Below are positions 1 to 63,875 of a stretch of 64,000 bases of DNA, in pieces. The DNA is from Escherichia phage 1-6bf: sequence record OR983334.1, one strand, 5' to 3'. The notes under the pieces were generated by a model. That model was not told the DNA's origin. It saw only the letters and a list, made by a program, of their open reading frames with translations, and did not search any database. Position 1 is the stretch's first letter. The number at the start of each line of letters is the position of its first letter. Made by a program: the position numbers and the translations under genes.

Positions 1-710
1 TGTGGTGCACTTGCCCTCTGAACTGTTTGAGAAGTAGGAGGTTTACCAGCAAGCATAGCAGCTACCCCTAATACTGCATTACCAAAGTTCTGTTGAGGCT
101 TCTGATCTTCCCCTTCTTGTGCTTCATCAGAGTAAAACTCTACTGGATTGCCACCTAAAGCACCAGTCTTAGAAGCAGCAATTTCTGCCTGAGTCGGAGC
201 TTGTGCGGCCTTCTCTCTATCTAATAAGTCAGGACTAAACTGATTGACTGGTTGAACAGCTTGCAAAGCTCCAACAGGGTTAGCAATCTGAGAAGCTGCA
301 TCACCATAAAAAGGAAGAAAGTGTTTGTTGTTCATTGAATCTAGAGCCTGAGGGGTAAATCCTTTCTTACCAGCGAACATCTGCTTAGCACCACCAGTTC
401 CCTCTGAGTAACCGACCATTGCCTTCTTAACGTCACCATTAAAAGCTTTCAGGTTGTCTCTGATGTAACGAGCACCCATGTCGATATTCTTTGCTGGATC
501 AAGTCTATCTTCTAGTTTGTAACCATAGTCTTTGGCTAACCCTTTACTGATCTGCATCAAACCGACAGGACCAGTTCCGGAAGCCACCTTAGGACGTCCG
601 CTAGACTCTCTTTGGATTACAGCATGAATCAAAGCAGCTGGGATTCCATACTTCTTTGAAGCCTGTTGAACCATCGGGTCTAGTTCTTCTATATCCATTC
701 TAATTGCCAT
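1..710 (-). CDS. Internal virion protein with N-terminal lytic transglycosylase (SLT) domain; 5' part only, gene continues beyond window start
   Basis: Minus-strand ATG at 708-710 preceded by AAGGAGAG; my translation begins MAIRMDIEELDP..ALIHAVIQRESSGRP..GLMQIS (SLT Glu-Ser and GLMQ motifs); frame open to position 1. Confidence 0.6.
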   Translation of the reverse strand, partial: MAIRMDIEELDPMVQQASKKYGIPAALIHAVIQRESSGRPKVASGTGPVGLMQISKGLAKDYGYKLEDRLDPAKNIDMGARYIRDNLKAFNGDVKKAMVGYSEGTGGAKQMFAGKKGFTPQALDSMNNKHFLPFYGDAASQIANPVGALQAVQPVNQFSPDLLDREKAAQAPTQAEIAASKTGALGGNPVEFYSDEAQEGEDQKPQQNFGNAVLGVAAMLAGKPPTSQTVQRASAP

Positions 711-36528: not shown

Positions 36529-37728
36529 ATGTTTCCAGTAACATTAGAAGATACTGAAGGTAATGTTTTAACGGTCAACCCTCCTTGTTATGGGTTCCTT
36601 CAGCTACGCAATTATAACGGGGGCGTTGAGGAAGAGGATGAAGAATATGATGAGTATTACGAACCTAACATGTATGAGGCAACTCATGGATGGAATATGC
36701 ACGTTCGAGTGTGGCATGAAGAAGCTAACGTTCGTAGTGCTGATGGGGAAGAATTCCGATTAAGCAGAGAGATGGATATGTGTAAAATCAAGCATATCTG
36801 GAACTCTGGAACTCATATGAAAATGTTAGGTTTTAGACGTTGGCGCGATGAAAAGCATGTAGCTGAAGCTTTAAGTTGGTGTTCGTATGAAGATGAAGAC
36901 ACGCCCCCTAAGAATAACATTGAACGTTGGAACGACAAAAACCCTGAACATCGAACCACACCTCGTGCTGTACTGGAAGCTATGGAAGCATTTGTGGACA
37001 AAGATCGTCCCTCCTGTTTACGCTGGCACGATAAAGGTTTTATGGGGGTAGCAACTGAGAACATCCCTGCTGATCGTTGTCTGTTCTATTTGATGTTAGA
37101 TCGAACCTTCTATTGTGAAGATGAAGAGAGTCAAGTTGAAACCTTCCTTCATAAATGGTTGGTTGAAGGCTGGACAATCCTTCAGGCTTATGTTTACTCA
37201 CGAATGGTTAGTACCTACACTAACCTCTTGGGGGAAACGAAAGCAACTCTGGTTGGTAATGATTGGGATGCTTGTATCTTCCCAGCGTCGCTGTTTACAG
37301 TCGGCATGGCTGATAAATATGCTGAAGCATTTCAAGTGCCATGGCGTCAACAGTCGTACAGAGATGGCTGTGGTCACTTCCGTGATGAAGATTTTAAGTG
37401 GATTCATTATGAGAATGATGAAACAGCAGAATTACGAGTTAATAACTCAATGTTCTTGCCAGTGATGCACCCCGATCTAGTAGAGAGTGAATCAGAAATC
37501 CTGAAATGTGATAACCTTTTGGTTAACTTTGCTCGTCGTGTCTCTAAAGATGAAAGAACAGCAAATAAATTAGTATATGGCATTCGTGCTGAGACTAAAG
37601 ACCTGTTCAACATCTATAACATTGTTCAGCGATTTAGTAGTGGAACTCTGGACCAAAGTTCGGAGTATTCAGTGATTCCATCCTCTGAGTGGGATGGTGT
37701 TATGAGCGGATTATTTTTAGGAAAATAA
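36529..37728 (+). CDS. Hypothetical protein (399 aa), first gene of amidoligase cluster
   Basis: ORF track; Trp/acidic-rich; no motif recognised. Confidence 0.4.
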   Translation: MFPVTLEDTEGNVLTVNPPCYGFLQLRNYNGGVEEEDEEYDEYYEPNMYEATHGWNMHVRVWHEEANVRSADGEEFRLSREMDMCKIKHIWNSGTHMKMLGFRRWRDEKHVAEALSWCSYEDEDTPPKNNIERWNDKNPEHRTTPRAVLEAMEAFVDKDRPSCLRWHDKGFMGVATENIPADRCLFYLMLDRTFYCEDEESQVETFLHKWLVEGWTILQAYVYSRMVSTYTNLLGETKATLVGNDWDACIFPASLFTVGMADKYAEAFQVPWRQQSYRDGCGHFRDEDFKWIHYENDETAELRVNNSMFLPVMHPDLVESESEILKCDNLLVNFARRVSKDERTANKLVYGIRAETKDLFNIYNIVQRFSSGTLDQSSEYSVIPSSEWDGVMSGLFLGK

Positions 37729-37738
37729 AAGGTTAGTT

Positions 37739-38710
37739 ATGTCAATCTCCACAACGATCGTACCTCTTAACCTTCAACAGGATTTAGGGGAACAGAAGTT
37801 CTTAGGTCGTGGGTGTTTCGGTATCCACAACTACATGCAAGGCCAGTGTGTAAATGACATTAATGGTGAAGTTATCACGGAAGAAGGGCGCTATCGTCGC
37901 TTCAACCGTGATATCAACTTGCAACTGGAGATGTTGAATTACTGGACTCACTCTTTTCATGGTCATGTTACATCTGATATTGAAAAGAATTTGGTTGAAA
38001 CAGCAGACATTATGAACTCCATGTCTTGCTATCGTGACGTATTTACGATCACTTCAGCGAATAGTGTTGCTGTCAACCTTCGTGAGCATCCAGCAGATCA
38101 GATCTTCACAGGACTTATGCTCTTTCGTAGTATTCTGGAAGGGCAATATCGTGGAATGGATTTCCTAGCAGAAGGAATTGAAGACAGGGAAGAGTGGCTG
38201 AAGCGTAAACGCATCGGCATCGCTCTAGTGTTAGCTGGGTTGGGTCGTGACTTCTTCGGTGGATGGTCTCAACGAGGAAGAGCTAATGGGAGTAGCGAAA
38301 GCACCTCTATTGTTATTAACAACAATATGTCAGCAGCAGCATTCCTTCCTTTGGTTGTAGACTCTGATGAATACACGAAGCAAGTATGGGTTCAAAACCC
38401 CTTCGGTGTTGGCGACAACGAGAATGGTTATGTTCGTAACCATAACCAAGATGCCTTACGAAGATTTGCTCGTGCTAAAGATCAAGACCCGGACGAGTAT
38501 GAAACAATGTCAGAGTGGTTAAGACTCTGGTCCAACTGTTATGGTCACAAACGTGAATCAATAGACGACAAGTTGGGAAACATTACAGTACAAAACTTTA
38601 CATCCCGACTGATTCAAAGAACTGGAGCAGATTCCGGTCTTACTCTTGAAGAAGTTGGTAACACAATCTCATCTCTCTTTTCTGAACTAGTGGAGTATTA
38701 CAATGACTAA
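37739..38710 (+). CDS. Hypothetical protein (323 aa), amidoligase cluster
   Basis: ORF track; no motif recognised. Confidence 0.4.
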   Translation: MSISTTIVPLNLQQDLGEQKFLGRGCFGIHNYMQGQCVNDINGEVITEEGRYRRFNRDINLQLEMLNYWTHSFHGHVTSDIEKNLVETADIMNSMSCYRDVFTITSANSVAVNLREHPADQIFTGLMLFRSILEGQYRGMDFLAEGIEDREEWLKRKRIGIALVLAGLGRDFFGGWSQRGRANGSSESTSIVINNNMSAAAFLPLVVDSDEYTKQVWVQNPFGVGDNENGYVRNHNQDALRRFARAKDQDPDEYETMSEWLRLWSNCYGHKRESIDDKLGNITVQNFTSRLIQRTGADSGLTLEEVGNTISSLFSELVEYYND

Positions 38711-39509
38711 GCGCAAATTCCTCATCGGCTCTGACCCTGAAATGTTCGTTCGTACTAGCAATGGTATCATCACTTCTGTAGCCGGTTTATTAGGCTGCTC
38801 TAAGGACGATAAAATCGCTCTGGCTAAGGATGTTCGTCTCCAAGAGGACAATGTACTGGCTGAGTTTGATATTGACCCACAGAGCGGTTTTGAAGCGTTT
38901 AACGATAACATGCAACGTGGTATTGATCTCACCAATAATGTCCTGAACAAACTGGACATGGAAACAGCTCCTGGTGTTAGCTCTCACATCTTCACTGAAG
39001 AAGAGATGAAGACCTTTAATGAATCAGCGTTCATCTTCGGGTGCACTCCTGATTTCAACGCCTTCACTGGTCAGAAAAACCCATCCCCGACTTCTCAGAA
39101 TAAGGGACTTCGTACTGCCGGTGGTCACGTACATCTTGGCGTAGTTGGTGCTTTGGATATCACTCTGCAAACTCAGATGATGCTTGGTGTGCTGTGTGAC
39201 TACTTCCTATCCCTCCCAGCAGTAATTATGGACAAAGATACTCGCCGTAAAGAACTCTACGGTAAAGCATCTGCAATCCGTTATAAAGACTATGGTATTG
39301 AATACCGTTCTCTGTCTAACTTCTGGATTAGTGATCGTGAAAACCGTAAGTTTGTTTACGATCAGGTTGACAAGGTTGTTCAGCAATGTGATATGTCCAC
39401 TCTGATGGCATTGCACTCTCGCCTTCCGATTGAGAAGCTTCATGAAATCATTAACGGGAACAATGTTAAAGAAGCTGACCAGCAGATCAAACTCCTTCAG
39501 GTAGCATAA
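38703..39509 (+). CDS. Divergent amidoligase / GCS2-like COOH-NH2 ligase candidate (268 aa)
   Basis: LIGSDPEMFV .. GGHVHLGV .. YGIEYRS pattern parallels the neighbouring amidoligase; start overlaps upstream gene. Confidence 0.4.
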   Translation: MTKRKFLIGSDPEMFVRTSNGIITSVAGLLGCSKDDKIALAKDVRLQEDNVLAEFDIDPQSGFEAFNDNMQRGIDLTNNVLNKLDMETAPGVSSHIFTEEEMKTFNESAFIFGCTPDFNAFTGQKNPSPTSQNKGLRTAGGHVHLGVVGALDITLQTQMMLGVLCDYFLSLPAVIMDKDTRRKELYGKASAIRYKDYGIEYRSLSNFWISDRENRKFVYDQVDKVVQQCDMSTLMALHSRLPIEKLHEIINGNNVKEADQQIKLLQVA

Positions 39510-39518
39510 GAGGTTATC

Positions 39519-40136
39519 GTGAGCTTAGTAGCTGATTTTTCTCATTACTATAATGGTACATGGATTGCTAAACGAGCAGGTAATATCAACCTTCCATGTT
39601 TTGTGATTGGTGTTGAGCAGAGCGGTAACTTCCGCAGTGATGACTTCTCTCACGAAGCAGAGCAGGCTCTGTACTTTGTTGTAGAGCAGTGGTACAAGAA
39701 CGAGCAAGGGCATCTTCGAAACACTACGATGAATATCCCAGTGTTCGACCCAACCCTGATTCTTGAATCACCTGACGTTGGTTATCTGTTCCATAACGGT
39801 AACACTGTAAGCTGGACTCATATTAACCCTGTTCGCCAGAGAGCAAAGGGCTTAATGGGTAATAAGATTCGAAATGCTCCGGGTGTTGGTCGTGCTATCT
39901 CCGGAGAGATGGTTTACAGTCTGTTCAATCCTGAATTCGAAGGATTGGTTACTCGTTATATTTACATCAACCCTACAGATGGTAAGGTGCATTATAAAGG
40001 TGCACTGGTAGGACAAGTAGATCTGGAAGCACCTCGTGACTCTTACGGTCAGCAACCGATGCGACTTCTGGAACATTTTCATCACATTTCTGAAAACCTT
40101 AGCAATTACAATATTACGTTGGTGGATTCGTTATGA
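39519..40136 (+). CDS. Hypothetical protein (205 aa), amidoligase cluster
   Basis: ORF track. Confidence 0.4.
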   Translation: MSLVADFSHYYNGTWIAKRAGNINLPCFVIGVEQSGNFRSDDFSHEAEQALYFVVEQWYKNEQGHLRNTTMNIPVFDPTLILESPDVGYLFHNGNTVSWTHINPVRQRAKGLMGNKIRNAPGVGRAISGEMVYSLFNPEFEGLVTRYIYINPTDGKVHYKGALVGQVDLEAPRDSYGQQPMRLLEHFHHISENLSNYNITLVDSL

Positions 40137-53777: not shown

Positions 53778-53981
53778 ATGAAAACTTTGTGGACTCTTGG
53801 TTGCCAAGACGATGACGGATATTTTTGGACTTGGAAAAGATTTCCAAAGAAGCCAACACCTGATAATCCTGCTTTAGATTGTGCTTCAGATGAAGATGCT
53901 AAGAAATTGGTAAATGGAGAAAAGGTTTGGTCTCCGGATAATGAAGTTCAGCACTCTTTAACAGAACGGGAATTTTCGTAA
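53778..53981 (+). CDS. Hypothetical protein (67 aa)
   Basis: ORF track. Confidence 0.3.
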   Translation: MKTLWTLGCQDDDGYFWTWKRFPKKPTPDNPALDCASDEDAKKLVNGEKVWSPDNEVQHSLTEREFS

Positions 53982-54304
53982 TGATTGACAGTAATACATT
54001 TAGGACTTCAAATGGAAGTGAGATAAGTCCCGCTGAAGTAATTAATCGGCACAGAAGGCAATTGATCATCCATTCCTATTTGTATTACTGGTTGGATGAC
54101 CCTATCTGGTCTGACGATAAATGGCAACAAGTTGCTAACGATCTAGTGGAGCTGCAAGCTCTGTATCCAGAGCCTACCGGAGTCTTTGACAGTGAGTTCA
54201 AAGATTGGGATGGTTCTACAGGGATGCACCTCCCACACAACGAGGCTGTTGCTTGCATGGCGACAGCTATTTATAGACTTCATAAAGAGGCTAATGTCGC
54301 ATGA
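53981..54304 (+). CDS. Standalone protein resembling the N-terminal Ia domain of NAD-dependent DNA ligase (107 aa)
   Basis: RHRRQLIIHSYLYYWLDDPIWSDDKW..LVELQALYPEP parallels the LigA block [35 protein letters not shown]. Confidence 0.4.
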   Translation: MIDSNTFRTSNGSEISPAEVINRHRRQLIIHSYLYYWLDDPIWSDDKWQQVANDLVELQALYPEPTGVFDSEFKDWDGSTGMHLPHNEAVACMATAIYRLHKEANVA

Positions 54305-54501
54305 GTGTAGTTTATGTGCTTGAGGAGTTTTCTGATGATGGTAATAACATTGTTGCCATATTCAAACATGTTCCAGATGTTGAGGATATCTTGAATGTAA
54401 CTCACTTGACTGATGTTGATAAAATCAAAGATCTCATCCGACATGACAACACCCACATAGGGGACTCTCTGTGGTCCCTTACTGAATGGACATTGTGGTA
54501 A
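54301..54501 (+). CDS. Hypothetical protein (66 aa)
   Basis: ORF track. Confidence 0.3.
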   Translation: MSVVYVLEEFSDDGNNIVAIFKHVPDVEDILNVTHLTDVDKIKDLIRHDNTHIGDSLWSLTEWTLW

Positions 54502-63128: not shown

Positions 63129-63875
63129 ATGTCTATGATTCCAACTATCGCAACTTCTTCCCGTAAATCCAACTACGATGTAATCCCTGATGGTGAGTAC
63201 GAAGCACGTATCGTTCGTGTAGTAGGTTTGGGTGTTCACAATCGTGACCCTTGGATTGACCCGAAGACCAAAGCAGTAACTCCTAAGAATCCGGCTTTCC
63301 GTATGGATTTAGCTTTCGAGCTGATTGGTGTTGATGCTACTGGTAAAGATTCCGATGGTAAGGCATTAGAACCACGTCCGGCTTGCCAGTTCAAGAGCTA
63401 TGATGTAAACCCACGAGCTAAGAACTCTGGTATTCTTGATCTTTGCAAGATGATTGACCCAAGTATTCAAGCACTGAAAGGTGATCTGTCTTGGTTCAAG
63501 GATGTTCTGTTAGGTCAGCCTGTTAACATTCTGGTTAACTCTTACACTAACAAAGCTGGTGAAGTTAAAAACTCCATCAAGACCATTTCTCCAATCCCAA
63601 CCAAATATCGTGCAGCAGTTGGTGAAGCTCGTAGTCCTCTGGTATTCTTCGAACCGTATGCTGAAACCGATGAGAACGTAGCATCCTATCAACTGATGTT
63701 CCCGTTCCAGCGCAACCTGCTTACTCAAGCTAATGACGCTAAGAACATGCCTCTGGCTGGTCGTGAAATTACTCGTGCTTCTGAAACAGATCAGAAAGAA
63801 GCTACTCCTTCAATCCCTACGATTGATAAAGAGCCTGCTTCTACTTATGAAGACGACAACGATAGCCCATTCTAA
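63129..63875 (+). CDS. Single-stranded DNA-binding protein candidate (T7 gp2.5-like) with acidic C-terminal tail ending in Phe
   Basis: Strong AAGGAA RBS after AT-rich leader; C-terminus ..TYEDDNDSPF; followed by a strong terminator. Confidence 0.45.
   Translation: MSMIPTIATSSRKSNYDVIPDGEYEARIVRVVGLGVHNRDPWIDPKTKAVTPKNPAFRMDLAFELIGVDATGKDSDGKALEPRPACQFKSYDVNPRAKNSGILDLCKMIDPSIQALKGDLSWFKDVLLGQPVNILVNSYTNKAGEVKNSIKTISPIPTKYRAAVGEARSPLVFFEPYAETDENVASYQLMFPFQRNLLTQANDAKNMPLAGREITRASETDQKEATPSIPTIDKEPASTYEDDNDSPF

What the first reader, a model, noticed from the sequence alone, without database searches (positions are those of the whole stretch)
53981..54304. Standalone homolog of the NAD-dependent DNA ligase N-terminal Ia domain
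The 107 aa protein contains HSYLYYWLDDPIWSDDKW..LVELQALYPEP, paralleling the LigA Ia-domain block (..[33 protein letters not shown]) that binds the NMN moiety of NAD+. No adenylation domain follows. A free Ia-like domain could bind NAD+/NMN or interact with host LigA; this is notable because phage and host defences often contest NAD+.
Basis: partly seen in the sequence, partly recalled or inferred. Interest (0 to 1): 0.5.

Follow-up and report, generated by a model that had tools for sequence, protein, structure and literature searches.

The report
Standalone ligase NAD-binding domain in phage
This 107-residue phage protein is a free-standing copy of the small NAD-binding domain of bacterial DNA ligase; the family was already described in 2022 from the matching gene of a related phage, but its function has never been tested, and related family members carry sliding-clamp docking peptides that point to a role at the replication fork.

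Summary

It is not new. Iyer et al. 2022 (PMC9503650) described solo Nlig-Ia proteins in 81 phages, using the syntenic ortholog ECBP2_0056 as their example, and proposed an NAD+ sensor or shield. No experiment was found.

What I add: only the first half (residues 15-66) is LigA-like, and the F-x-DWDGSTGMHLP loop plus last helix are solo-specific. This clade has W-Q where LigA has Y35-D36. The gene sits in replication modules in several unrelated phages. About 19% of family clusters (28/150) carry Q-x-x-L-F-type terminal peptides on disordered tethers, which resemble sliding-clamp-binding motifs. This suggests a replisome or LigA-linked role. The window protein itself lacks the motif.

The parts
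53981..54304 (+). Gene for the 107-aa solo Nlig-Ia protein (stop codon included)
   Evidence: ORF list and sequence; PF22745 E=3.8e-35; dN/dS 0.04-0.12; syntenic ortholog of ECBP2_0056 between ThyX and PhoH.
54023..54178 (+). Residues 15-66: two-helix hairpin homologous to LigA domain Ia (E. coli LigA residues 2-53)
54083..54088 (+). Y35-Y36, aligned with E. coli LigA Y22-H23 (NMN-contact positions); invariant in the family
   Evidence: Alignment A1 invariant columns; residue mapping from HMMER and hhalign alignments. The role of the LigA residues comes from established knowledge (Sriskanda & Shuman 2002, title cited in PMC4797296). The nicotinamide stacks on a pair of tyrosines (PMC7470946).
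54113..54127 (+). D45..W48-Q49, aligned with LigA D32..Y35-D36. D45 is kept; Y to W and D to Q are fixed substitutions in this clade
   Evidence: Invariant in A1. Across 265 family proteins the pair is WQ 197, WD 15, FD 7, WS 7, YD 4, YE 1. Dp-1, Adolin and CS38 keep Y-D and Porthos has F-D.
54197..54235 (+). Residues 73-85, F-K-DWDGSTGMHLP: second invariant block, specific to solo proteins
   Evidence: Invariant F73 W76 G78 T80 G81 H83 L84 P85. Not aligned to LigA by hhalign. E. coli LigA covers only PF22745 model positions 2-52 of 92, whereas solo proteins cover 1-91. Modelled as a loop with pLDDT 87-89.
54242..54298 (+). Residues 88-106: C-terminal helix that completes the autonomous fold
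   Evidence: AlphaFold2 helix 88-106, overall pLDDT 92.6; the same helix appears in the P0033 model at 77-93.
53778..53981 (+). Upstream 67-aa ORF of unknown function; its stop overlaps the Nlig-Ia start (TAATG)
   Evidence: no PHROG match.
54301..54501 (+). Downstream 66-aa ORF of unknown function; its start overlaps the Nlig-Ia stop (ATGA)
   Evidence: phrog_30988, unknown function; conserved next to the gene in MN03 and Bas90.

Best explanation
Shown: the gene encodes a standalone, autonomously folding version of the NAD-ligase domain Ia (Pfam PF22745). It is the syntenic ortholog of ECBP2_0056, in a phage that has no DNA ligase of its own. Inferred, roughly 60% likely: it binds the nicotinamide-mononucleotide half of NAD+ (or free NMN) in the same pocket as LigA domain Ia, because all five pocket positions are invariant (Y35, Y36, D45, W48, Q49). 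Inferred, roughly 40% likely, and the mechanism I commit to: it works in phage DNA replication together with the host NAD-dependent ligase LigA, on which this ligase-less phage must depend to seal Okazaki fragments. In this model the solo Ia module holds the NMN moiety of an NAD+ whose AMP moiety sits in the LigA nucleotidyltransferase pocket. It thereby recruits and/or promotes charging (adenylylation) of LigA at phage replication forks, which would matter most when NAD+ is scarce. In about a fifth of the family the module is tethered to the sliding clamp by terminal QxxLF-type peptides. In this clamp-less, T7-like replisome it would act untethered or through another contact. It is not a DNA ligase, despite that label in many GenBank records.
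For: Identity: PF22745 at 120.8 bits; profile and fold matches only to LigA Ia; synteny with ECBP2_0056; published description. Pocket: invariant H31 S32 L34 Y35 Y36 D45 W48 Q49 in 64 diverse homologs, with the aromatic stacking pair retained (PMC7470946). Dependence on host ligase: no NTase or OB ligase domain among the 20 large plus-strand ORFs scanned; the Bas90 complete genome has no other 'ligase'; tblastn with E. coli LigA and T7 ligase finds only the Ia segment; the authors report that, with one exception, the phages with a solo domain encode neither ligase type. Replication link: the gene lies among thymidylate synthase, thioredoxin, PhoH, primase-helicase and DNA polymerase genes here; next to Pol I and primase/helicase in Arthrobacter phage Adolin; next to DnaB, primase and NrdD in Clostridium phage CS38; and between a recombinase and the clamp loader, near a phage DnaN, in Streptococcus phage Dp-1. 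Clamp peptides: 28 of 150 cluster representatives carry terminal LF motifs (22 C-terminal, 10 N-terminal, 4 both); 26 of 265 end in exact QxxLF; 25 observed against 0.45 expected, maximum 4 in 2,000 shuffles; the tails are coil; Dp-1 gp16 begins MQKSLF. The bacterial clamp-binding consensus is QL(S/D)LF, and the E. coli clamp contacts LigA and accelerates ligation (PMC9690074).
Against: No ligand-binding or interaction experiment exists for any family member in the searchable literature. The window protein has no clamp-type motif at either end, so the strongest replisome clue is borrowed from homologs. Host LigA already has its own Ia domain in cis at very high effective concentration, so a trans-acting Ia would need much higher affinity or a special context to matter. 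D36 of LigA is replaced by Q and Y35 by W in this clade, so the ligand may differ from NMN/NAD+. The only experimental partner reported for a family member is RuvB, not LigA or DnaN, from a single yeast two-hybrid hit for Dp-1 orf16. Location in a replication module is common for small phage genes and is weak evidence on its own. The terminal LF peptides have not been shown to bind any clamp.
Confidence: 0.4

Rival explanations
1. Free NAD+ sensor or NAD+ shield (the published proposal). The solo domain binds cytosolic NAD+ and either reports NAD+ depletion by host NADase defence effectors to the phage or protects a pool of NAD+ from them, independently of any ligase.
For: Proposed by Iyer et al. 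2022 on the basis of conserved ligand-binding residues and the absence of ligase genes. Pocket positions are invariant. NAD+ depletion is a widespread anti-phage strategy that phages are known to counter (introduction of the EVADES preprint). In Enterococcus phage Porthos a DUF1768-containing gene, which I recall to be the NADAR family, lies about 3.5 kb away.
Against: A 107-aa single-domain protein has no output domain and no conserved partner gene that could transmit a signal; its neighbours are lineage-specific small ORFs. Stoichiometric shielding of NAD+, which I recall to be present at millimolar levels, by a small protein is quantitatively implausible. The model does not explain the clamp-type peptides, the replication-module location, or why the domain is found in phages that lack a ligase. 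No other NAD-network gene was seen among the window ORFs I scanned.
Confidence: 0.25
2. Dominant-negative decoy that inhibits host LigA. The free Ia domain competes with LigA's own Ia for the nucleotidyltransferase domain or for NAD+/NMN. This blocks ligase charging and leaves nicks unsealed, for example to cripple host DNA maintenance or to favour recombination-dependent or rolling-circle replication.
For: It shares the same fold and pocket as the domain that must close over the NTase domain for adenylylation. Clamp tethering would place an inhibitor exactly where LigA acts. In temperate phages the gene lies in the early region with exonucleases and other recombination-type functions, and next to annotated RecBCD inhibitors in Clostridium and Carnobacterium phages.
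Against: These phages encode no ligase of their own and replicate with discontinuous lagging-strand machinery (primase-helicase plus Pol A). Shutting off the only available ligase should harm the phage itself.
Confidence: 0.12
3. A protein-protein adaptor in recombination or repair that no longer binds a nucleotide. The Ia scaffold has been re-used to bind DNA-metabolism proteins such as RuvB or clamp-associated factors, and the invariant residues serve that interface.
For: Yeast two-hybrid hit between Dp-1 orf16 and host RuvB. The W-Q replacement of LigA Y35-D36 is present in most of the family. A solo-specific invariant loop DWDGSTGMHLP has no LigA counterpart. Fusions exist to a zinc ribbon (P0010), an RMF-like segment (P0120) and a roughly 200-aa phage domain (P0182, P0196).
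Against: It rests on a single unreplicated two-hybrid pair. All five NMN-contact positions stay invariant and chemically compatible with nicotinamide stacking and ribose hydrogen bonding. Dp-1, Adolin and CS38 keep the LigA-type Y-D pair.
Confidence: 0.1
4. Subunit of a split phage ligase. The Ia domain is encoded separately from a cryptic catalytic subunit elsewhere in the genome, by analogy with the two-subunit NAD-dependent ligase of phage T5.
For: T5 shows that NAD-ligase modules can be encoded as separate polypeptides: NTase+OB and HhH+BRCT. Several large Kuravirus ORFs have no Pfam assignment (36529-37728, 37739-38710, 39519-40136, 63129-63875).
Against: No NTase or OB ligase domain was found by Pfam in the 20 large plus-strand ORFs scanned. 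tblastn with LigA residues 70-671 or T7 ligase against the window and the whole Bas90 genome gave a best E of 0.38. The unassigned ORFs lie in the phiEco32-type amidoligase cluster. The 2022 survey found a separate catalytic module in only one of 81 phages. The T5 split does not involve Ia.
Confidence: 0.03

Closest known systems
Solo Nlig-Ia proteins of phages (Pfam PF22745; exemplar ECBP2_0056; Iyer, Burroughs, Anantharaman & Aravind 2022, Viruses 14:1977)
   Same: Same family and same gene. It is 74.5% identical over 99% of its length, lies in the same position between ThyX and PhoH, and comes from a related phiEco32-like phage of the same subfamily, Gordonclarkvirinae. The architecture is the same: a single domain of about 100 aa with no ligase catalytic module in the genome.
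   Different: There is no difference in kind. This report adds family-level features the paper does not mention ('clamp' occurs 0 times): the solo-specific second half, the W-Q substitution in this clade, the recurring replication-module context, and terminal clamp-type peptides in about 19% of clusters.
Domain Ia of bacterial NAD+-dependent DNA ligase (LigA), e.g. E. coli LigA residues 1-69; PDB 2OWO, 5TT5, 1TAE
   Same: Homologous two-helix hairpin (window 15-66 aligned to LigA 2-53), with the H-x-Y-L-Y-[YH] and D-x-P-x-x-x-D motifs. The aromatic pair that stacks the nicotinamide and the first aspartate are retained.
   Different: It is not fused to NTase, OB, Zn, HhH or BRCT domains. LigA Y35-D36 is W48-Q49 here. 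It has an extra invariant loop (F-x-DWDGSTGMHLP) and a third long helix absent from LigA. In LigA, Ia forms only half of the NAD+ pocket, and the NTase domain forms the other half.
Beta-sliding-clamp client proteins carrying the QL(S/D)LF pentapeptide (Pol II, Pol IV, UmuC, MutS, Hda and others)
   Same: 26 of 265 family members end in Q-x-x-L-F at the C-terminus after a disordered Pro/Ala- or Lys-rich linker. Others start with M[ASP]LF, and 4 representatives carry a motif at both ends. Dp-1 gp16 (MQKSLF...) is encoded beside the phage clamp loader, with a phage DnaN upstream.
   Different: The window protein has no such peptide. Clamp binding has not been shown for any member. Many tails end in [KR]LF without the glutamine.
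Two-subunit NAD+-dependent DNA ligase of phage T5 (LigA and LigB subunits)
   Same: It is a phage-encoded NAD-ligase whose modules are separate polypeptides working in trans.
   Different: T5 splits between the OB and HhH domains and keeps the catalytic module. The Kuravirus has no catalytic module at all.
Phage counter-measures to NAD+ depletion or NAD-derived signals (NARP1/NARP2 pathways; Tad1/Tad2 sponges)
   Same: There is a possible functional analogy under the 'shield/sensor' reading: a small phage protein acting on the NAD+ economy during infection.
   Different: There is no sequence or fold relationship. Those systems are enzymes or characterised sponges with demonstrated ligands, whereas here no ligand has been demonstrated.

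Membership tests
Pfam PF22745 Nlig-Ia (solo NAD-ligase Ia domain proteins) | Scores above the curated gathering threshold over the whole model | tested here: met
   120.8 bits against a cutoff of 27, E=3.8e-35, model positions 1-91 of 92; all 64 aligned homologs also match.
Pfam PF22745 Nlig-Ia (solo NAD-ligase Ia domain proteins) | Alpha-helical fold of LigA domain Ia | tested here: met
Pfam PF22745 Nlig-Ia (solo NAD-ligase Ia domain proteins) | Standalone architecture: no ligase catalytic domain in the same protein | tested here: met
   The protein is 107 aa with a single Pfam domain above threshold; flanking ORFs are 67 and 66 aa.
Pfam PF22745 Nlig-Ia (solo NAD-ligase Ia domain proteins) | Host phage lacks NAD- or ATP-dependent ligase catalytic module (true of 80 of 81 published cases) | tested here: met
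   Pfam on 20 large ORFs, the full Bas90 annotation, and tblastn with LigA and T7 ligase. The minus-strand structural ORFs were covered only by tblastn and by the annotation of the relative.
Pfam PF22745 Nlig-Ia (solo NAD-ligase Ia domain proteins) | Conserved ligand-binding residues of domain Ia | tested here: met
   Y35, Y36, D45, W48 and Q49 align to LigA Y22, H23, D32, Y35 and D36, and all are invariant in A1. Two of the five (W and Q) are the family-typical variants rather than the LigA residues.
Pfam PF22745 Nlig-Ia (solo NAD-ligase Ia domain proteins) | Actual binding of NAD+ or NMN | not testable with these tools
   Needs ITC, DSF or a crystal structure. No published measurement was found.
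NAD+-dependent DNA ligase (LigA), as many GenBank records label this gene | Nucleotidyltransferase (adenylation) domain with the catalytic lysine motif | tested here: not met
   There is no PF01653 match in the protein. LigA residues 70-671 find nothing in the window. The protein ends 22 residues after the Ia-family loop.
NAD+-dependent DNA ligase (LigA), as many GenBank records label this gene | OB, zinc-finger, HhH and BRCT DNA-binding domains | tested here: not met
   Absent from the 107-aa protein and from the genome.
Beta-sliding-clamp-binding proteins | Terminal or internal QL(S/D)LF-like pentapeptide on an accessible segment | tested here: not met
   The window protein starts MIDSNTFRT and ends RLHKEANVA, with no LF peptide. 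The feature is met in 28 of 150 family cluster representatives.
Beta-sliding-clamp-binding proteins | Physical binding to the clamp hydrophobic cleft | not testable with these tools
   Needs peptide-clamp binding assays or co-structures. Complex prediction with host proteins is not possible with the tools given.
Pfam PF15592 Imm41 (polymorphic-toxin immunity protein) | Score above the gathering threshold | tested here: not met
   21.2 bits against a cutoff of 26.9, over 36 residues only. Only 3 of 64 homologs give any hit. Imm41 is described as alpha+beta with SF and W motifs.

The most novel reading that the evidence does not exclude
Solo Nlig-Ia proteins are not free NAD+ sensors. They are replisome-associated accessory factors for the host NAD-dependent ligase. 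Phages that lack a ligase carry a detached Ia module, which in about one fifth of lineages is docked on the sliding clamp through terminal QxxLF-type peptides, sometimes one at each end to fit the two pockets of the clamp dimer. The module captures NAD+/NMN and recruits or charges host LigA at phage Okazaki nicks. This would be a new way for a virus to take over a host enzyme: by supplying one of its domains in trans. The clamp-peptide observation was not found in the literature I could search.
Probability: 0.3. Interest if true: 0.65.

Novelty: already known. Interest (0 to 1): 0.33.

Why it matters
The finding as stated, a standalone LigA Ia domain in a phage, is already in Pfam and in a 2022 survey, so it is not a discovery. 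Its value is practical and hypothesis-generating. First, many GenBank and PHROG-derived annotations call this 107-aa protein 'DNA ligase' or 'NAD-dependent DNA ligase', which is wrong and could mislead anyone inferring that these phages are self-sufficient for ligation. Second, the family is large (over 1,100 clusters at 50% identity, 277 cultured-phage records), strongly conserved and experimentally untouched. The exemplar phages are easy to work with, since they are E. coli phages that include BASEL collection members. Third, the clamp-type peptides and the replication-module context give a concrete alternative to the 'NAD+ sensor' idea, testable with standard assays. If correct, it would reveal how ligase-less phages secure host LigA activity, possibly under NAD+-depleting immunity.

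Tried and rejected
1. Imm41 relationship. The hit is weak (E=3e-4, below threshold), recurs in only 3 of 64 homologs, and the published Imm41 description does not fit. I dropped it.

2. Cryptic or split ligase in the genome. Pfam, PHROGs, tblastn and the annotation of relatives were all negative. The best tblastn hits to ligase catalytic regions (window 38264-38918, E 0.6-1.8) are insignificant and fall in the amidoligase cluster. The T5 split ligase was examined as a precedent, but its split does not involve Ia.

3. Own promoter or terminator for the gene. The sigma-70 and terminator scan of 52.4-56.4 kb gave counts at the level of shuffled sequence, and phiEco32-type phage-sigma promoters are not covered by the tool.

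4. Neighbouring small ORFs as functional partners. They have no match or only lineage-restricted PHROGs of unknown function.

5. Contexts of motif-bearing homologs P0033, P0021, P0069 and P0089. The surrounding genes are mostly unannotated phage genes (dUTPase, DUF6283, resolvase, exonuclease I) and were not decisive.

6. tblastn with motif-bearing homologs against cultured phages. No hit covered the tails, so the correlation between motif and clamp usage could not be tested across genomes.

7. Fusion partners in longer homologs. Only a 'minor head protein' PHROG and a borderline RMF-like hit were found, which is not informative.

8. Literature. There are no hits for PF22745 and no experimental paper on the solo domain. 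The EVADES 'DNA ligase' ORF55 is an unrelated ATP-dependent ligase. The Dp-1 intraviral interactome paper and the 2017 LigA-NAD+ structure paper are not held, so the specific LigA residue roles rest on my own knowledge of Sriskanda & Shuman 2002.

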